Shown piece by piece: positions 4,495-29,995 of a stretch of DNA of 41,658 bases. Position 1 is the first letter of the stretch. The number at the start of each line of letters is the position of its first letter. Position numbers and translations under genes: made by a program. The stretch lies in IMG/VR virus record IMGVR_UViG_3300050490_000017; one strand, written 5' to 3'. This DNA is from a virus. The notes under the pieces are model-generated. The model saw nothing but the letters and a program-made list of their open reading frames with translations. It was not told the DNA's origin and did no database searches.

Positions 4495-6488
4495 CGACTT
4501 GGCGCAGTGCTTCCGGCGCCGATGAGAGCGTTGACGATTGCTTGTTGAGCCCGCGTAAGCGTTTCCCCTTTACGGACAGCCGCCGCCAGTTCAGCCCGCG
4601 CCTGCGTCGGTTCAGACTGCAGAAGCATGCGAGCGATCATATCCCTCGTGCCTTGGTTTCTTCCCTGCACGGCATTGACGCCACGCTGCAGCGCCTGCAT
4701 GCCGGCAGAACGAAAGTTGCCCGTCAAGGCATTGCCGGCGATCCCGAGCATGGTCGGGTCGAAACCCATCATCTCTGTCGCATCAGCAAGGTTGTCAGCC
4801 GTGCGAGAGCCGCCAAGAGCTTGGTTGGCTGTCTCGAACATGCGCTGTTCACGGGCAATTCGTTCGCCCATGACATCGCCTCGGCCTGGAGCCGCGAAGG
4901 CCGGGAACTCCTGCTCTGTCTTGCCGGTGATCAGTGCGCGGGCCTTGTTCGTCGTCGGAGACATCGAGGCGGCTTCGGTACGGGCGATTAGAGGGTCAAC
5001 ATAACCAACGCGGAACGGCTGTTGCTGATCCGGCTGCAACTGGTTGAAGCCCTCGATGTTGTCTGCTGCCCTTGTCCTCGACGAGGAAGCGGCCGCGCCT
5101 TGGTCGATCGCGCCGATGGCCTGGCTTTCGCGACGGAACTGATCGCGCGCTGCAGCGTATGGTTCTGACGCTGTGGCGAGGGAATCGTCCAGCGCGTTTC
5201 TGATCGGGATAAGCTCTCGCTGGATCGTTGGATTGGCTCTTGCCGTCTCGATCATCGAATCCAACTCACGCTTGGCTCGGAGAGCGGCGTTGAAATCGGT
5301 GAGAACAGAATTGCCATCGGTTAGGTAGCCGCGGGCTCTCCTTACGGCGCCTTCGATGCTGTCATCGGCGATGTTCGTGAGCGGGGCGCTGCCGCCCTGG
5401 CCTAGGAATGTGTCCGCCTGATTGATCGCTGCAGTCGGGTCAACCGTTCCGGCCGACTGGCGCACGGCAGCATAGTTCGCATCAGCGGCGGCGTCTCTGG
5501 CTTCCGTCATGGCTGTTCTGGTCTGAGCGGCTGTCTGCGGAGCGTCAAAGCCCTCAGAGAGCGCATTGACAAGGCGATCGGTCTGCCCTGCCTGGCGGCG
5601 CTGGAGCTGTTCGGCAATCTGCTGGCGCATATCTCCCGGCGAGCGCGCTACACCCGTCAGCATGCGTTGGCCAGAATTGCCCAGCGCATCGGCGACCATG
5701 TATTCCGGTTGGCCTTGCTGCCCTGCGCGCATCACCTCGTCGGCCACATCGTCGGCGCTGCGGCCGGATCTCATGAGCGCTTCCGCTATGGCGTTCTGAG
5801 CGCGCGTCGTATTACCGAGGCCCATCATCGAGCCAATGGCACTGGCTGTGCCGCCGACAAGCGATGTCACCGGGCGCGCGGCCGCACCAACAGCACCCCC
5901 GATCAGCGCTGGGATGCCGATATCCTGATCATGCCCATAGGCAGACAGTGCGCCTTGTGCCGTGCCGGATGCAGCATCTGCGGCCATGCTGCCCAAATAG
6001 CTGCCCCTTATAGCTTGGGCGACCCTTGGTGCCACTTGAGACACAGCTTCGCCTGCAAGGCGGTTGACAGCCGTGCCTCCGTGGATAGCCCCGCCGACAG
6101 AGGCGATCGCATTCGCGGTCGGGTGCTCTTCTTGGTACTGCTGGCGAGCGTTCTGATATTGCCCGCGGATCGTGTTGTATTCCTCACCGACTGATTTATC
6201 CGTGAACGGCGCACGGATGATCGCGTTCGCTCCGGCGGCTGCCTTGCCAGGAAGGCCAAACCCAAGGTCATCCACATAGACAGAAGAGGCGTCGACCTTT
6301 TGGCTTCCGGTATCGAGAGTGGCGTGCGGCTTCGGTTTGGCTGCTTCTCGCTGTGCATCCAATTGGCCGTAGATGAGGGAACGCAGTTCTTCGCCAGTCT
6401 GAGGCGTAGCAGACGCTTCCGCTGCTTTCTGACGAGCGCGGGCCAGCACAAGTGCCCGCTGCTGCTCGACGGTCATTTCTTCAGCCAT
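4491..6488 (-). CDS. Large internal virion / ejection protein (665 aa)
   Basis: The size, the position between the lysozyme-domain ejection protein and the tail fibre, and the A/G/Q-rich composition are typical of podovirus internal core proteins. No specific motif was recognised. Confidence 0.45.
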   Translation of the reverse strand: MAEEMTVEQQRALVLARARQKAAEASATPQTGEELRSLIYGQLDAQREAAKPKPHATLDTGSQKVDASSVYVDDLGFGLPGKAAAGANAIIRAPFTDKSVGEEYNTIRGQYQNARQQYQEEHPTANAIASVGGAIHGGTAVNRLAGEAVSQVAPRVAQAIRGSYLGSMAADAASGTAQGALSAYGHDQDIGIPALIGGAVGAAARPVTSLVGGTASAIGSMMGLGNTTRAQNAIAEALMRSGRSADDVADEVMRAGQQGQPEYMVADALGNSGQRMLTGVARSPGDMRQQIAEQLQRRQAGQTDRLVNALSEGFDAPQTAAQTRTAMTEARDAAADANYAAVRQSAGTVDPTAAINQADTFLGQGGSAPLTNIADDSIEGAVRRARGYLTDGNSVLTDFNAALRAKRELDSMIETARANPTIQRELIPIRNALDDSLATASEPYAAARDQFRRESQAIGAIDQGAAASSSRTRAADNIEGFNQLQPDQQQPFRVGYVDPLIARTEAASMSPTTNKARALITGKTEQEFPAFAAPGRGDVMGERIAREQRMFETANQALGGSRTADNLADATEMMGFDPTMLGIAGNALTGNFRSAGMQALQRGVNAVQGRNQGTRDMIARMLLQSEPTQARAELAAAVRKGETLTRAQQAIVNALIGAGSTAPSR

Positions 6489-22967: not shown

Positions 22968-23411
22968 CTACTCCGGGGCCTCCTGGTTGCTGGATTGTGC
23001 TGCTTGCGAGATGATCGGATTGTTCGGAAACATTGCTGCGAGCTTCTTGCGGGCGCTCAGGCTACCATTCGTGGCTTCCTTGAGCAGCTTCAGCTTCTCG
23101 GCTGATACCTTCGGCTGCGGCTTCTCTTCCGGGGGCTCGATGCGTGGCCGGCGCTCTGCGGCGATCGTCATCTGTTGAAACCGACATTCCTCGGCAAACT
23201 CTGCGCAGCTCGGGGCGAAGGCGTTGTTATGGCCTGCCACCTCTCCACGCATGAACCGGCCGGCGGCGCGCGCCAGTGCTTCCGGCTCAATGCCGCCTGA
23301 CGCCATGAGATAGGCTCGTATCTGCATATCCGGGTCCATTGTCGATGAGGCTGGGAAGCCCGAAAGCATCGCCGCGATAATCGTTGCTGGTGAGGTATTC
23401 ACGCGCTGCAT
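22968..23411 (-). CDS. Hypothetical protein (147 aa from ATG 23411)
   Basis: From ORF 22968..23417 (TTG start) or ATG 23411. It overlaps the upstream gene by about 125 nt in another frame. Confidence 0.55.
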   Translation of the reverse strand: MQRVNTSPATIIAAMLSGFPASSTMDPDMQIRAYLMASGGIEPEALARAAGRFMRGEVAGHNNAFAPSCAEFAEECRFQQMTIAAERRPRIEPPEEKPQPKVSAEKLKLLKEATNGSLSARKKLAAMFPNNPIISQAAQSSNQEAPE

Positions 23412-23673
23412 CGGCAATTGTCCTACGTGATGAGTTGCGTTGAACGGGCTGGGGCTCGTCAGACCAGCGCTCTTGATTTAGCCAGGTCGTCGGGTGCGGG
23501 ATGAACTGCTGTTCCTTGCTGGTGTAGTAGGCTATTTGCCTCTCAAGGCCGGCCATGATGCCGTCGAAGCTTTCGAGCTTCAGGGCCTTCTCGAATGACT
23601 TGCGGGCAGCGCCCTTGCCGATGCGGCGCGGGTAGGCGCGCCAGAATGTTTCGAACTGATCTTCCTTGCTCAC
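23287..23673 (-). CDS. Conserved phage protein (128 aa), function unknown
   Basis: Carries FETFWRAYPRRIGKGAARKSFEKALK ... IPHPTTWLNQERWSDE. I recognise this motif pair from prophage early regions but cannot name a family. Confidence 0.55.
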   Translation of the reverse strand: MSKEDQFETFWRAYPRRIGKGAARKSFEKALKLESFDGIMAGLERQIAYYTSKEQQFIPHPTTWLNQERWSDEPQPVQRNSSRRTIADAAREYLTSNDYRGDAFGLPSLIDNGPGYADTSLSHGVRRH

Positions 23674-25419: not shown

Positions 25420-25758
25420 TTATCTCTCAGCCATGCCGCGATTTTCATCCGCCGCGACAAGCTCAGCCATCTGACGAAGACGGGCGGTCTTGGCTCTGTA
25501 TTCTGCATGTTCGTCCCTCGCTCTTTTGAGAGCTTCAGCCGTCTCGAAAAGCTCCACCATCTGGTGATGCCTCACGATCCTGCTCTCGTTGTTCCACCAC
25601 CCCCGCAGGCGGCGCTCTGTCCATCTCATGTCTGGCTCGTCACGGTGCGGGAAGCGTCGGTTCAGCTCCTTCCACGCCGTGTGGAGCATGTCTCCGACGT
25701 GCCGCTTCCCGTGCGCTATCTCGGTAATCAAGAAGTTTGCGGTTGCTACATCGTCCAT
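25420..25758 (-). CDS. Hypothetical protein (112 aa from ATG 25758; tracked ORF extends to 25836)
   Basis: Tracked ORF. The start is uncertain because both candidate starts have weak RBSs. Confidence 0.5.
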   Translation of the reverse strand: MDDVATANFLITEIAHGKRHVGDMLHTAWKELNRRFPHRDEPDMRWTERRLRGWWNNESRIVRHHQMVELFETAEALKRARDEHAEYRAKTARLRQMAELVAADENRGMAER

Positions 25759-25894
25759 TTTCCTACTAACGCCCTGTTTTAGTTTTCCCGAATCCTCGGG
25801 GGAAATTCCCGACACTGCCGCTCTCCTTTGGTGCATCTTCGCTCTTGTTCACCGGAGCTACTGAAGATGACCAAATGGGACACTCAGATACTAG

Positions 25895-26142
25895 GAGACG
25901 AAGGAGCCGCCCTTGCCGGGGCACTGGCCCCTTCGTCTCGCTCAGGCACCCGCCGCCGGGAACCAGCAATTTTAGTATTCAGCCAGCGCCCCGCCGCCCG
26001 GATATCGCCGGCTGATGCGATGGAGCCCGATGAGGGTTTCGAGTCCTTGGGCTCCATCGCCGTTCGATTGCTTGCTGAATGGAGCAAGCCGCGTATGAGG
26101 TTGCTGGCGCCGCCCCAAGGAGGGGGAAAGGGCGACGCCAGC
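25895..26142. ncRNA. Hairpin-dense non-coding segment (candidate structured RNA; strand unresolved)
   Basis: Four perfect or near-perfect stems: 25895-25904/25930-25939 (10 bp), 26017-26028/26049-26060 (12 bp), 26071-26076/26083-26088 (6 bp) and 26103-26109/26136-26142 plus 26111-26115/26130-26134 (7+5 bp). There is no codon-phase GC bias (about 67/63/58 percent, hand count). Confidence 0.35.
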
Positions 26143-26158
26143 GCCTGACAGTCCTCGA

Positions 26159-26347
26159 TCAGGGAGGGGGGAGAGAGCTGTCGGGGTTGGAAACTGGTGA
26201 CTGTTCGTCGATAATGGCGTCTATTGCCGCGACCAGATGGCAAAGCAGATGGTCGATCGCGCGGGGAGAGCCAATGTTGTAGTCAGGCTCATTCCGAGCG
26301 ACCATGAGCACGTCACGGATTTCTTTCAAACGCGCCTTGTCGCTCAC
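26159..26347 (-). CDS. Hypothetical protein (62 aa, GTG start)
   Basis: Tracked ORF with a GTGA overlap with the upstream stop. Confidence 0.5.
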   Translation of the reverse strand: MSDKARLKEIRDVLMVARNEPDYNIGSPRAIDHLLCHLVAAIDAIIDEQSPVSNPDSSLPPP

Positions 26348-27334: not shown

Positions 27335-28441
27335 TCATGCTGCGTCGCCTTCGCGCTGGATGGAGGTGATTTCAGCGAGCTTTGCTTGGTACGCAGCCGA
27401 CGCGTCTTCAGGATTTTTGAATGAACCGAGATACCGGTTCCGACCGCAAATGCAGATTTGAGCCATGTATCGGTTATTCGATATCGTCACGCCGAGAGGA
27501 AGATCGAAGTGTTTCGTTCTTGAGGACTTCCGTTCGCGGCTACTCAGCTTCCGGCGCACGTCAACCATGACTTCCTCATGCCGAGGGTGGCTTTTTCGAT
27601 ACGGGTTGTTGGGCTGGAAAGTGACGTTGTGAAGCGCTGGAGCTATATAGACATTCCCAATCGAGTATTCGCCCTGGTCTCCAAACCGGCACATGACGTA
27701 TTCGTCTCTCCGGCGCCCTCGCAATGCCCATTTCCCAGAAGCCTCCCATACGCTCCACCATTCGGAGAACGTCATGGTCCAAGCGATCGATCGACGACGC
27801 GCGTTCATGCGCTGGCTGTTGAAGCATGTGACTGGCTGGGTTATTTCTGGTCGAAGTTGCCTCGCCAGTTCGTGGATCCTGATGTATTCCTCGACGGAGC
27901 AGCCATACTTTTTCTGGTAACGACGCTCCTTCACAGCCTTGCGAGCCGATTCATTGCGAGAAGCCACGACGCGCTGGCCACCATCGGCAGCCGTCATGCC
28001 GTGACGCTTCTTGATGATCTGCCGAACTCGTTCGCGAGTGACGCTGAAAAGCTCGCCAATCTCCGCCAGCGTCTTCCCACCTCGATACATTGCCGCCATC
28101 GCGTCAGCCCTGTCTCTGTCGAACGGGGTATCCATCGGATGGGCAAATGTGATGCTATGTTCGCGGGCGATCCGGCTGACAATATTGAGCGAGATACCAA
28201 GACGATCGGCGGTTTGCTGGCGGGTAAAGCCCGTCTCTGCTGCTTCGATGATCTGACCAACTCTGGGATCGTCTCCCAATTCTTCCCGCTCGACGCTAAC
28301 ACCAAAATCGAAACCGAAGCGTTTGGAGTAGCTAAGCAGTGTGGCTCGGGTGAAGCCGGATGCTTTGCTGGCCTCCGAAAGAGAGAGGCCCGAATATTGG
28401 CCGATCGTCTCGGCTCGCTTTTCCCAGAGTTCGTTTCTCAT
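27335..28441 (-). CDS. Multi-HTH DNA-binding protein with a C-terminal AP2 domain (368 aa)
   Basis: It carries a sigma70-region-4-like HTH (GKTLAEIGELFSVTRERVRQII) plus at least two further HTH-like segments. The C-terminus LPLGVTISNNRYMAQICICGRNRYLGSFKNPEDASAAYQAK matches the AP2 fold pattern. ATGA overlap with the cro-like gene. Confidence 0.6.
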   Translation of the reverse strand: MRNELWEKRAETIGQYSGLSLSEASKASGFTRATLLSYSKRFGFDFGVSVEREELGDDPRVGQIIEAAETGFTRQQTADRLGISLNIVSRIAREHSITFAHPMDTPFDRDRADAMAAMYRGGKTLAEIGELFSVTRERVRQIIKKRHGMTAADGGQRVVASRNESARKAVKERRYQKKYGCSVEEYIRIHELARQLRPEITQPVTCFNSQRMNARRRSIAWTMTFSEWWSVWEASGKWALRGRRRDEYVMCRFGDQGEYSIGNVYIAPALHNVTFQPNNPYRKSHPRHEEVMVDVRRKLSSRERKSSRTKHFDLPLGVTISNNRYMAQICICGRNRYLGSFKNPEDASAAYQAKLAEITSIQREGDAA

Positions 28442-29505: not shown

Positions 29506-29584
29506 CCGTTCTTAAGCATGACCGTTCTTATGGGTGCATTACCACGCACCTTACTACGTGCATCACCATGCACCTTAGAACGGT
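29506..29584. repeat. Iteron-like repeat cluster downstream of the winged-helix gene
   Basis: CCGTTCTTA at 29506-14 and 29522-30, with an inverted copy at 29576-83. The 20-bp repeat GTGCAT(T/C)ACCA(C/T)GCACCTTA occurs at 29534-53 and 29558-77 (18/20 identical, 24-bp period). The second copy contains the perfect palindrome GTGCAT-cacc-ATGCAC. An A/T-rich tract lies at 29481-29505. Confidence 0.8.
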
Positions 29585-29919
29585 CCTGATAGCTCGACAG
29601 GAACAAGCTCATAGGCGTTAAATCTTTTTGTATGGCCCGGGATTTTTACGCGGGTTGCCCTGATAAGGTTTTCTGATTTCAGCTTTGCAACTGCGCTTTT
29701 GACGATCCTGACGCCACAACTCAAGTCATCCGCTATTCGCCCCTGCGACAGAACCCAGATGCCGCTGGAAGGGTTGATCGACGACGCGATTCTGATCGCC
29801 ACCAGCTTCTCTACATAGGTCATCTCGCCTTTAGGTCGGCAGAGCACGTGCTTAATCCAATTGTCGCGCATGCGGTAAAATTCCCCGGCTGGGGATAGCT
29901 GTCTCTGTCTGGTGTCCAT
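29575..29919 (-). CDS. Winged-helix (HTH_36-like) DNA-binding protein (114 aa)
   Basis: VAIRIASSINPSSGIWVLSQGRIADDLSCGVRIVKSAVAKLKSENLI follows the pattern of HTH_36 replication-initiator or regulator N-domains. A GGGAG RBS is present. It is transcribed inward from the right operator module. Confidence 0.55.
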   Translation of the reverse strand: MDTRQRQLSPAGEFYRMRDNWIKHVLCRPKGEMTYVEKLVAIRIASSINPSSGIWVLSQGRIADDLSCGVRIVKSAVAKLKSENLIRATRVKIPGHTKRFNAYELVPVELSGPF

Positions 29920-29946
29920 CTCCCAACATTATCTGAATATTTTTGG

Positions 29947-29995
29947 TAGTGCCACTAAAAAAATAGTTGCGCTATAATTCTAGTGGGACTATAAC
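29947..29995. promoter_or_regulatory. Right operator/promoter module (three TAGT-N3-(A/G)CTA sites at exact 17-bp spacing, back-to-back promoters)
   Basis: TAGTGCCACTA at 29947-57, TAGTTGCGCTA at 29964-74 and TAGTGGGACTA at 29981-91. Rightward promoter: TTGCGC (29967-72), 17-nt spacer, TATAAC (29990-95). Leftward mirror promoter: -10 TATTTT (29965-60). Confidence 0.6.

What the first reader, a model, noticed from the sequence alone, without database searches (positions are those of the whole stretch)
25759..26158. A 320-400 nt hairpin-dense non-coding island inside the early-left operon: candidate structured RNA with a CCUCC (anti-SD-like) loop
This tightly packed genome has almost no intergenic space, yet this interval lacks a convincing gene. 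The two tracked ORFs (25828..26148 plus strand, 25884..26243 minus strand) share a third-codon phase and are S/P/R/A-rich. My hand count of GC by codon phase is flat (about 67/63/58 percent). The DNA instead encodes four strong stems of 10, 12, 6 and 7+5 bp (coordinates in the feature table) and a 9-bp direct repeat CCCGCCGCC (25949, 25990). Read on the minus (operon) strand, the largest hairpin presents the loop UUUCCCCCUCCUUG. This is the kind of C/U-rich anti-Shine-Dalgarno loop used by alphaproteobacterial regulatory sRNAs. On the plus strand the same loop reads AAGGAGGGGGAAA. Alternative roles are a processing or antitermination element, or a protein-binding or origin structure.
Basis: partly seen in the sequence, partly recalled or inferred. 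Interest (0 to 1): 0.7.

Follow-up and report, generated by a model that had tools for sequence, protein, structure and literature searches.

The report
Hairpin-packed small gene, opposite strand
The "non-coding, hairpin-dense island" is most likely a small, fast-evolving protein gene on the opposite strand of a Rhizobium phage early operon, and its DNA also carries eight hairpins kept by compensatory changes, so one stretch appears to serve both a protein and a folded RNA.

Summary
The hairpins are real and conserved. The window minus strand folds far better than shuffles (z = -6.7). About 44 related Rhizobium phage and prophage loci keep the same eight-hairpin layout, with compensatory changes (0 of 500 shuffles reach the observed covariation). 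The CCUCC-type loops of the first two hairpins recur in nearly all loci.

The "no gene here" reading fails. The plus-strand ORF 25867..26148 (93 aa) has a canonical GGAG 9 nt before its ATG. That start and an ORF of usually 83-103 codons recur in most loci. This frame has the most synonymous differences, the best BLOSUM scores and almost no stops. dN/dS is about 0.5. A shared helix motif (ESLG..AVRL) persists even where DNA similarity is lost.

This gene runs divergently from a conserved 131-aa gene, with start codons 51 nt apart, and converges on the upstream operon ORF.

Some features are not explained by the protein: the loop CCUCC motifs, the GGCGGCGG motifs (read in different frames in different homologs) and the stem covariation.

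Best reading (about 0.45): a dual-use locus. In the operon-sense transcript the stretch is an untranslated, structured spacer of about 370 nt. It starts with two cuckoo-like anti-SD hairpins and ends in a hairpin that occludes the next gene's ribosome-binding site. No Rfam family matches.

The parts
25867..26148 (+). Small protein-coding gene, 93 aa. ATG at 25867, SD GGAG at 25854-25857, stop TGA at 26146-26148. Mostly disordered, with one conserved helix (LGSIAVRLLAEW).
   Evidence: The open frame, SD and ATG are conserved in most of 44 loci. Variability by codon position is 0.36/0.33/0.43, p = 0.007. This frame is best by synonymous fraction, BLOSUM score and stop count. dN/dS is 0.27-0.75. 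Gene callers call it in 56 clusters, and P0121 is identical at 93 aa. It is annotated in RHph_N2 as EVC05_063. AF2 model.
26144..26185 (-). H1: hairpin with a C-rich loop (CUCUCCCCCCUCCCUGAUC). It contains the stop codon of the upstream operon ORF (UGA, 26161-26159).
   Evidence: Local fold. In 12 homologs, unrelated upstream ORFs read into H1 in the same frame and, in nearly all of them, stop in its loop or 3' arm. C-rich loop motif recurs.
26103..26142 (-). H2: 14-bp hairpin with loop UUUCCCCCUCCUUG (anti-SD-like; resembles the 16S 3' end and the cuckoo motif). It overlaps the variable C-terminal codons of the plus-strand gene.
   Evidence: Covariation: 82% of cells paired, 7 of 12 pairs with double changes. 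Loop motif conserved while the encoded amino acids are not.
26070..26089 (-). H3: 7-bp hairpin with loop CCAUUC. Its antisense encodes the conserved ..LAEWSK.. block.
   Evidence: Trp (TGG) to Phe (TTT) replacement and Ser/Arg codon-family switches in homologs.
26017..26060 (-). H4: 12-bp hairpin, the most strongly covarying helix.
   Evidence: 95.8% of cells paired, 8 of 12 pairs with changes on both sides, none broken in the 10 core pairs.
25979..26015 (-).
   Evidence: The motif is read in different plus-strand frames in different homologs (QRPAA versus DRRP), so the constraint is on nucleotides.
25940..25967 (-). H6: small hairpin UCCCGGCGGCGGG (second GGCGGCGG copy, repeat at 25949), plus GCCUGAGC, which is nearly invariant in the closer homologs.
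25895..25939 (-). H7: 14-bp hairpin with G.U pairs at its base on the operon-sense strand.
   Evidence: 83% of cells paired, 6 of 14 pairs with double changes, GC/GU alternation.
25815..25887 (-). H8: long interrupted hairpin spanning the divergent start regions. Its 5' arm holds the reverse complement of the plus gene's ATG. Its apex holds GCUCC, which is the plus gene's SD on the other strand. Its 3' arm pairs with the SD (GGAG, 25826-25823) of the minus-strand 131-aa gene.
   Evidence: The SD region is at least 7 of 9 nt paired in 32 of 41 homologs, against 17 of 47 control genes in the window.
25420..25815 (-). Conserved partner gene (131 aa from GTG 25815, function unknown). It has a basic leader of about 19 codons before a second Met. 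In some homologs this leader is a separate 11-codon uORF overlapping the main start (ATGA).
   Evidence: The element lies directly upstream in 26 of 36 loci by nhmmer, and the same layout appears in the rest by folding.
26159..26347 (-). Upstream operon ORF (62 aa). It terminates inside H1 and converges on the plus-strand gene's stop, 10 nt away.

Best explanation
The interval is a dual-use locus.

(1) Shown by sequence evidence: the plus strand encodes a real, fast-evolving small protein (93 aa, largely disordered, one conserved amphipathic helix). The gene is divergent from a conserved 131-aa gene, with start codons 51 nt apart, and convergent with the last upstream ORF of the minus-strand early operon.

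(2) Shown by sequence evidence: the same DNA carries eight hairpins whose pairing is kept by compensatory substitutions. It also carries nucleotide motifs (CCUCC loops of H1 and H2, two GGCGGCGG copies) that the protein does not explain.

(3) Inferred: early-operon transcription reads through this opposite-strand gene. The resulting operon-sense RNA of about 370 nt cannot be translated, so it is kept as a compact string of hairpins.
- Its first two hairpins present anti-Shine-Dalgarno-type CCUCC loops, like cuckoo/alpha-r14 sRNAs.
- Its last hairpin (H8) pairs the ribosome-binding site of the 131-aa gene with the complement of the plus gene's start region.
- Translation of the next gene would therefore be gated by unfolding, cleavage or antisense pairing of H8.
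- The structured spacer would also resist Rho loading, RNase attack and full duplex formation with the complementary plus-strand mRNA.
For: Gene:
- Conserved open frame, SD and ATG.
- Three-base periodicity in a frame-agnostic alignment, p = 0.007.
- Plus frame 0 has 25.5% synonymous differences and mean BLOSUM +0.74 with 0.9% stops. Four other frames have 11-13%, about -0.4 and 4-7% stops.
- dN/dS 0.27-0.75.
- Called by gene finders in 56 clusters.

Hairpins:
- z = -6.7.
- 72% of cells paired against 39-47% for slid partners, 47 pairs with double changes, 0 of 500 shuffles.
- The same architecture appears in loci that the DNA profile did not detect or matched only at the 3' end.

Nucleotide-level constraints:
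- H2 loop motif conserved while the encoded residues vary or the ORF has already ended.
- GGCGGCGG is read in different frames in different homologs.

Strand: isolated G.U on the operon strand 84 against A.C 57, and 102 of 172 hairpins are more stable on that strand.

SD occlusion.

Read-through: no promoter-like or terminator-like site within the element on the operon strand, although a promoter-like plus-strand site abuts H1 at 26187-26215. The nearest operon promoter-like site is at 29928-29955.
Against: - The strand preference is modest. The sequences are related, so the p-values are optimistic, and whole-element energies do not favour one strand consistently.
- SD pairing in MFE folds is common in this GC-rich window: 36% of control genes reach 7 of 9.
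- No transcript data exist, and read-through of the early operon is assumed.
- No promoter for the plus gene was found.
- HNH endonuclease genes split the element at four different points in relatives, so neither the full RNA nor the full ORF is indispensable.
- The function of either protein is unknown.
Confidence: 0.45

Rival explanations
1. Only the plus-strand gene matters. The hairpins act in its own mRNA (stability or translation control), or they are DNA-level quasi-palindromes kept perfect by template-switch repair or recombination. There is no role for the operon-sense RNA.
For: Strong coding signal. Both strands fold well: plus strand z = -3.8, and the antisense is more stable in 4 of 14 whole elements. 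Hairpin 'alleles' are shuffled in a mosaic pattern among relatives.
Against: G.U against A.C counts and hairpin energies lean to the operon strand. The CCUCC loops of H1 and H2 lie at or beyond the end of the ORF and are conserved as nucleotides. H1 overlaps the stop of the upstream operon ORF in a fixed frame in all homologs examined.
Confidence: 0.22
2. A cis-antisense switch. The plus-strand mRNA and the operon-sense leader are fully complementary, mirror-image hairpin RNAs. They meet through G-rich and C-rich loop kissing, as in CopA/CopT, RNAI/RNAII or sar/ant. This mutually controls the 93-aa gene and the 131-aa gene, whose short leader ORF couples translation as tap or repY do.
For: Divergent starts 51 nt apart sit within one large palindrome, H8. 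The stem-loops on both strands are conserved. The 11-23-codon leader is either fused or a separate uORF with ATGA overlap. The stems diverge fast next to a slowly evolving neighbour gene, as with specificity determinants.
Against: No promoter was found for either partner near the overlap. The loops are long and lack the YUNR-type motif typical of kissing loops (my knowledge). There is no evidence that the two transcripts coexist.
Confidence: 0.2
3. One reading: a purely non-coding structured RNA or sRNA with anti-SD loops, in which the plus-strand ORF is a chance open frame.
For: Cuckoo-like geometry of H1 and H2 (PMC4615179). Weak sub-threshold Rfam resemblance to ar7, 6C and CcsR1. The predicted protein is mostly disordered.
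Against: Stops are depleted about 5-8-fold in one frame only. That frame also shows synonymous excess, Ser/Arg codon-family switches, a W-to-F replacement and a conserved SD plus ATG. A protein motif is shared by loci with no detectable DNA similarity.
Confidence: 0.07
4. A nut-like site for Nus factors (boxA). The conserved H8 apex GCUCCUUGAACAAG recruits NusB/NusE for antitermination or translational repression, as in lambda nutL-N or suhB.
For: GCUCCUU equals the Aquifex boxA core GGCUCCUU (PMC3177189) and is close to the E. coli consensus GYUCUUUAANA (PMC5725501). The rhizobial rrn leader carries UUUUUUGACAAUUGAAGAU and two GGCGGCGG copies. The downstream protein is small with a basic N-terminus.
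Against: By my count from alignment A5, exact GCUCCUU is present in about 10 of 41 homologs. The key G2 is often U or A. The motif is half-paired in H8. It is fully explained as the reverse complement of the plus gene's AAGGAGC ribosome-binding site. The profile search against rrn leaders was not significant.
Confidence: 0.04

Closest known systems
Cuckoo RNA family (alpha-r14 RF02344, CcsR1 RF02791, NfeR1/RcsR1) of alphaproteobacteria
   Same: H1 and H2 are two adjacent hairpins of 32-45 nt with helices of at least 6 bp, loops of 9-19 nt and short linkers. The loops carry CCUCC-type anti-SD motifs, and several homologs have the exact CUCCUCCC. As with CcsR1-4, the hairpins lie immediately behind a small upstream ORF (my knowledge).
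   Different: No match to the Rfam models (CcsR1 13.7 bits against a cut-off of 65.3; no ar14 hit). The window's loops are CCCCCUCC rather than CCUCCUCCC. The hairpins are part of a longer eight-hairpin array inside an operon. H1 contains the upstream ORF's last codons and stop, and H2 overlaps an opposite-strand gene. No own promoter or terminator was found.
Cis-antisense control regions with structured leaders and leader peptides (R1 CopA/CopT-tap-repA; IncB/IncI RNAI-repY; P22 sar/ant)
   Same: Mirror-image stem-loops on two complementary transcripts. The RBS of the controlled gene is buried in a hairpin. A short leader ORF is coupled to the main ORF. The stems diverge fast.
   Different: Here the antisense partner would be a 93-codon translated mRNA, not a short untranslated RNA. 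There are eight hairpins over about 370 nt. No promoters are mapped. The controlled gene is of unknown function.
Opposite-strand 'moron'-type genes embedded in phage operons
   Same: A small accessory-looking gene, fast evolving, lies in opposite orientation inside an otherwise co-directional early region. It is absent or truncated in some relatives.
   Different: It is tightly linked to one neighbouring gene as a divergent pair in all loci. It lacks a recognisable promoter and terminator. Its coding sequence is overlaid by conserved hairpins.
Lambda nutL-N leader (boxA/boxB plus an RNase III hairpin in front of a small basic protein)
   Same: A long structured leader with an SD-proximal hairpin lies before a small protein with a basic N-terminus. 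A boxA-like string is present.
   Different: The boxA-like string is not consistently conserved and is explained by the other strand's SD. The element is 3.7 kb from the promoter-like site. No boxB equivalent was identified.

Membership tests
Protein-coding gene (plus strand 25867..26148) | Open reading frame kept in homologs despite substitutions and indels | tested here: met
   An ORF of 83-113 codons starts at the conserved SD+ATG in 34 of 44 distinct loci. A further six loci that the first scan missed or mis-started carry ORFs of 60-101 codons at the same position. Codon pairs containing a stop: 0.9% in this frame against 4-7% in the others.
Protein-coding gene (plus strand 25867..26148) | Ribosome-binding site and start codon conserved in position | tested here: met
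   GGAG or AAGGAG lies 7-10 nt before an ATG that sits 47-57 nt from the divergent gene's start in most loci.
Protein-coding gene (plus strand 25867..26148) | Codon-phase substitution pattern and purifying selection | tested here: met
   Position-3 variability 0.434 against 0.359 and 0.330, p = 0.007. Synonymous fraction 25.5% against 11-13%. dN/dS 0.27-0.75. The signal is weaker than in the neighbouring gene (0.13-0.44).
Protein-coding gene (plus strand 25867..26148) | Evidence of translation or of a folded product | not testable with these tools
   AF2 mean pLDDT is 59, and only helix 61-71 is confident. No Pfam or PHROG family matches.
Cuckoo RNAs (RF02344 / RF02791) | Two to four adjacent hairpins of 24-50 nt, at least 6 bp, loops of 9-27 nt, linkers of at most 10 nt (PMC4615179) | tested here: met
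   H1 is 42 nt and H2 is 40 nt with a 1-nt linker in the window. Relatives are similar.
Cuckoo RNAs (RF02344 / RF02791) | Loop motif CCUCCUCCC in each hairpin | tested here: inconclusive
   The window loops contain CCCCCCUCCC and CCCCCUCC. Exact CUCCUCCC occurs in many relatives. The published motif list (IUPAC variants) was not available to test.
Cuckoo RNAs (RF02344 / RF02791) | Score at or above the Rfam gathering threshold | tested here: not met
   CcsR1 scores 13.7 bits against 65.3, and there is no ar14 hit. There are no gathering-level hits in the window or in 20 homologous loci.
Cuckoo RNAs (RF02344 / RF02791) | Discrete stable small transcript | not testable with these tools
   No promoter-like or terminator-like site flanks H1-H2 on the operon strand. 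Processing cannot be assessed.
Conserved structured RNA (generic) | Base pairs kept through compensatory changes beyond controls | tested here: met
   Sequence-only MAFFT alignment with the window's fold projected: 72.2% paired against 38.7-47.3% for slid partners, covariation score 0.247 against 0.129, 0 of 500 shuffles. H4 is 95.8% paired.
Conserved structured RNA (generic) | Strand asymmetry (G.U tolerated, A.C not) | tested here: inconclusive
   84 G.U against 57 A.C, and 102 against 70 hairpins favour the operon strand. An earlier MFE-based count was 50 against 48. The sequences are not independent.
boxA / nut site | 8-nt core (G/U)GCUC(U/C)UU with G2, C5 and Y6 conserved, single-stranded | tested here: not met
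   By my count, exact GCUCCUU occurs in about 10 of 41 homologs. Position 2 is G, U or A. The motif is paired with GAGC in the H8 apex. Literature: PMC3177189, PMC5725501.
Intrinsic terminator / independent transcription unit | GC-rich hairpin followed by a U run; promoter upstream | tested here: not met
   No terminator-like site lies in 25800-26200 on either strand. A promoter-like site lies on the plus strand at 26187-26215, abutting H1. No hairpin is followed by a U run.
Group I intron (considered because HNH genes sit inside the element in relatives) | Match to the intron core model; exons that join into one ORF | tested here: not met
   No Intron_gpI hit even at E up to 10. The flanking ORFs are unrelated between phages.

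The most novel reading that the evidence does not exclude
A truly bifunctional stretch. A translated, fast-evolving opposite-strand gene and an operon-sense regulatory RNA share the same 300 nt and co-evolve. The RNA has cuckoo-like anti-SD hairpins at one end and an RBS-occluding hairpin at the other. Together they would form an RNA/protein switch that times delayed-early gene expression in rhizobiophages. Hairpin 'alleles' exchanged between phages would act as specificity determinants.
Probability: 0.25. Interest if true: 0.75.

Novelty: new variant of a known kind. Interest (0 to 1): 0.5.

Why it matters
If both constraints are real, this is a compact example of a DNA-phage region where a protein frame on one strand and an RNA fold on the other are selected at once. 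Synonymous sites of one hairpin arm drive non-synonymous change in the other arm. That would explain why the small protein evolves so fast.

It also defines an unannotated element family of about 44 loci in Rhizobium, Ensifer and Allorhizobium prophages that carries cuckoo-type anti-SD hairpins. That gives a concrete, testable link between phage early regulation and the host's anti-SD sRNA logic.

Practically, it is a warning on both sides. Flat codon-phase GC and dense hairpins do not prove that a region is non-coding. A called ORF does not exclude a functional RNA.

Tried and rejected
- **Rfam:** no family at gathering thresholds in the window or in 20 homologous loci. Only weak sub-threshold hits to 6C, ar7 and CcsR1.
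- **tRNA/tmRNA:** none in the element.
- **Repeated host element (RIME/REP-like):** no match in 7.3 Gb of plasmids.
- **Second copy in the window (putL/putR-like):** none.
- **Promoter or terminator consensus scans:** no terminator-like site and no operon-strand promoter-like site in the element. One plus-strand promoter-like site abuts H1 at 26187-26215. No clear plus-strand promoter in the conserved upstream alignment.
- **Targets of the GGAGGGG complement in the window:** no enrichment.
- **Pseudoknot between the H3 loop and the GAGUG after H7:** suggested by RNAalifold and by an AAAC/GUUU switch in L174 and L134. It is not general in divergent loci, and the H3 loop CCA is better explained as the Trp codon of the plus gene. 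Dropped.
- **boxA/nut idea:** I fetched rhizobial rrn leaders. Only short motif resemblance was found, the profile search was not significant, and the motif is explained by the plus gene's SD.
- **Group I intron** (because of the HNH inserts): no model hit and no exon continuity.
- **Function of the 131-aa protein:** no Pfam family, only PHROGs of unknown function, no PDB match. AF2 pLDDT was 64 and Foldseek hits were meaningless.
- **Function of the 93-aa protein:** no family.
- **RNAalifold on a MAFFT alignment of 41 H8 regions:** failed because the variable arm misaligns.
- **Two over-degenerate DNA patterns:** these wasted genome and metagenome scans on chance GC-rich hits.

Full report
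**1. Observation**

The interval lies between two minus-strand ORFs. One is 26159..26347 (62 aa). The other begins, on my reading, at GTG 25815, preceded by AAGGAG. The direct repeat CCCGCCGCC is at 25949 and 25990. The loop AAGGAGGGGGAAA, which reads UUUCCCCCUCCUUG on the minus strand, is at 26117-26129.

As RNA, the minus strand of 25800-26195 folds to -196.8 kcal/mol (z = -6.7, 0 of 100 shuffles as good). The plus strand gives z = -3.8. Local folding gives eight hairpins, H1 to H8. Rfam has no family here, at gathering thresholds or meaningfully below them. There is no tRNA in the element.

**2. Relatives**

Sensitive blastn against phage genomes matched only this island, not the flanking genes, in Rhizobium phages RHph_N2, RHEph18, RHph_I1_23 and RHph_Y1_10. 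Nothing matched in plasmids.

Pattern scans and a profile added prophage and metagenome copies. Searching with the downstream protein added 36 more loci. In total there are about 44 distinct sequences.

The element always sits directly upstream of a homolog or analog of the same small gene. nhmmer finds it in 26 of 36 of these loci. Folding shows the same layout in the others.

**3. The structure is conserved**

I used a purely sequence-based MAFFT alignment of 12 sequences and projected the window's own fold onto it.
- 72.2% of cells pair, against 38.7-47.3% when partners are slid.
- 47 pairs show changes on both sides.
- 0 of 500 shuffles reach the observed covariation.
- H4 is 95.8% paired, with 8 of 12 pairs doubly changed. 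H2 and H7 follow.

Each homolog folded on its own gives the same eight hairpins with different stem sequences.

The loops of H1 and H2 carry CCUCC-type motifs in nearly every locus. Several have the exact CUCCUCCC of the cuckoo/alpha-r14 sRNAs (PMC4615179). None of 20 homologous loci hits any Rfam family.

**4. The turn: the other strand is coding**

Every homolog has one long open frame on the antisense strand, which is the window's plus strand. The translations align in a single frame. The evidence that this is a real gene is as follows.
- **Conserved start.** A canonical SD (GGAG or AAGGAG) lies 7-10 nt before an ATG that sits 47-57 nt from the divergent gene's start. In 34 of 44 loci this opens an ORF of 83-113 codons. 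A relaxed re-scan found the same start, with ORFs of 60-101 codons, in six loci that the first scan missed or mis-started. A few loci remain unresolved.
- **Codon periodicity.** In the frame-agnostic nucleotide alignment, variability by codon position is 0.359/0.330/0.434, with permutation p = 0.007.
- **Best frame of six.** This frame has 25.5% synonymous differences and mean BLOSUM62 +0.74, with 0.9% of codon pairs containing a stop. Four other frames have 10.6-13%, -0.33 to -0.50 and 4-7% stops. The mirror frame on the other strand is intermediate, as expected.
- **Purifying selection.** dN/dS is 0.27-0.75 in 18 pairs, against 0.13-0.44 for the neighbouring gene.
- **Protein-level substitutions.** There are Ser AGC to TCG/TCT switches, Arg CGT to AGA switches, and a Trp-to-Phe replacement in the conserved block ..LGS(I/L)AVRL(L/V)AxWSxPRM.
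- **Motif outlasts DNA similarity.** The same ESLG..AVV.RL motif occurs in loci whose DNA the profile did not detect or matched only at the 3' end.
- **Gene callers agree.** They predict it in 56 clusters, including an identical 93-aa protein. RHph_N2 annotates it as EVC05_063.

The product has no Pfam or PHROG family. AF2 predicts it to be mostly disordered with one confident helix at residues 61-71.

**5. What the protein does not explain**

- The H2 loop motif is conserved as nucleotides while the encoded residues vary (QGGGKG, PGGVET, QRGK-stop, QEG-stop). In some homologs the ORF ends inside the loop.
- H1 lies beyond the plus gene. It contains the stop codon of whatever unrelated upstream operon ORF precedes it, always in the same frame.
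- The conserved GGCGGCGG of the H5 loop is read in different frames in different homologs, for example QRPAA against DRRP.
- In H4, the arm encoding G-S-(I/L)-A changes mostly at third positions. The complementary arm's peptide changes freely (AMEP, ESDL, ASDL, ASSP, AIEP), yet pairing is kept.
- A strand-neutral stem search finds 84 isolated G.U on the operon strand against 57 A.C. It also finds 102 of 172 hairpins more stable on that strand. This lean is modest and the data are not independent. Whole-element energies are ambiguous.

**6. Geometry**

The plus gene (25867..26148) and the 131-aa minus gene (from 25815) are divergent, with start codons 51 nt apart. The plus gene's stop (26146-26148) converges on the upstream ORF's stop (26159-26161).

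H8 (25815-25887) is a long interrupted palindrome across the divergent starts.
- Its 5' arm is the complement of the plus gene's ATG region.
- Its apex GCUCC is the plus gene's SD on the other strand.
- Its 3' arm pairs with the minus gene's SD.
- In 32 of 41 homologs at least 7 of 9 SD-region nucleotides are paired, against 17 of 47 control genes in the window.

The minus gene has a conserved basic leader of 11-23 codons. In the I1_23/L128 group this leader is a separate uORF ending in ATGA.

No terminator-like site lies in the element. The only promoter-like site nearby is a plus-strand match at 26187-26215 that abuts H1. The nearest operon-strand promoter-like site is the divergent pair at 29928-29978, 3.7 kb upstream.

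**7. Interpretation**

I commit to a dual-use locus, with confidence of about 0.45 for the RNA half and about 0.9 for the gene. The gene itself is supported by sequence evidence. The RNA role is inferred as follows.
- Early-operon transcription reads through the opposite-strand gene.
- The roughly 370-nt operon-sense stretch is untranslatable and is kept as a compact hairpin array.
- The cuckoo-like CCUCC loops at its 5' end could act on Shine-Dalgarno sequences.
- H8 at its 3' end gates translation of the next gene.
- The dense structure would also limit Rho loading, RNase attack and duplex formation with the complementary mRNA.

The rivals are:
- the hairpins serve only the plus mRNA or are DNA quasi-palindromes (0.22);
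- a cis-antisense kissing switch like CopA/CopT with leader-peptide coupling (0.20), which overlaps with the main model;
- a boxA/nut-like site (0.04).

I tested the boxA idea by fetching rhizobial rrn leaders and reading PMC5725501 and PMC3177189. I set it aside because the motif is not consistently conserved and is explained by the plus gene's SD.

**8. Other points**

The region evolves far faster than its neighbour. For the window against L329, pS/pN is 0.60/0.45 here and 0.11/0.02 in the adjacent gene. Hairpin variants are shuffled among relatives.

HNH-AP2 endonuclease genes are inserted at four different places in the element in relatives. Neither the complete RNA nor the complete ORF is therefore indispensable.

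**9. Verdict**

The inference that it is non-coding is not right. The thing itself is a new variant of known kinds, an embedded opposite-strand small gene overlaid by a conserved structured RNA with cuckoo-like hairpins. It is of moderate interest until transcript and translation data decide which constraints are functional.

Noticed in passing
L003 3237-3794 (RHph_Y1_10); L137 about 1650-2210; L140 about 5630-5922; L340 about 2110-2410: HNH endonuclease genes with an AP2-type C-terminus (..AAYRRAA..HGEFA..) are inserted into the element at four different points: between H3 and H4, within H4, before a divergent H4, and directly before H7. This looks like intron-less homing into the only DNA conserved among these mosaic phages.
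   Followed up: partly
window 27335-28441 (-) and 28335-28426 (+): The window's own 368-aa ORF matches HNH endonuclease and HTH families. ARAGORN calls a 92-nt tRNA-Ala(tgc) on the opposite strand inside this ORF. That call is probably a false positive or an unusual tRNA-like sequence.
   Followed up: no
window 29575-29919 (-) and 23287-23673 (-): Two separate small ORFs, about 6 kb apart, match the N-terminal part (31-116) and the C-terminal part (176-266) of the same replication-initiator family, phrog_270. This is either a split or domain-shuffled initiator, or two independent domain proteins.
   Followed up: no
window 25759-25815 (-); L002 and L128 equivalents: The basic N-terminal extension of the downstream gene (11-23 codons; MSGISPEDSGKLKQG.. 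in the window's subfamily) is in-frame in most phages. In the I1_23/L128/L129 group it is a separate 11-codon uORF (MTKIKAGKTKK) overlapping the main ATG as ATGA. Its RNA can also form a small hairpin, CCCGA..UCGGG.
   Followed up: partly
L359 240-275 and 379-441 (Rhizobium sp. Q54 rrn leader); L360 equivalents: The rhizobial rRNA operon leader carries two GGCGGCGG copies flanking a boxA-like UUUUUUGACAAUUGAAGAU. The phage element likewise has two GGCGGCGG copies. Overall similarity is not significant.
   Followed up: partly
window 25830-26190 against L329 and L330: Phages whose downstream gene is 91-94% identical in protein differ by pS about 0.6 and pN 0.34-0.45 across the element. Hairpin variants also occur in mosaic combinations in 45 predicted proteins. 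This suggests module exchange or diversifying evolution.
   Followed up: partly
window 29928-29978: A back-to-back pair of sigma-70-like promoter matches lies between the divergent ORFs 29575-29919 (-) and 29955 onward (+). This is the likely early control region of the prophage.
   Followed up: no
window 26159-26347 (-) and homologs in L172 and L209: The 62-aa upstream ORF belongs to a small family sharing ..SPRAIDHLL.HLVA.IDA.. with no Pfam match. In other phages its place is taken by DUF551-like or unrelated proteins that nevertheless end with the same element-encoded tail (N/E)P(D/E)S..PP.
   Followed up: partly
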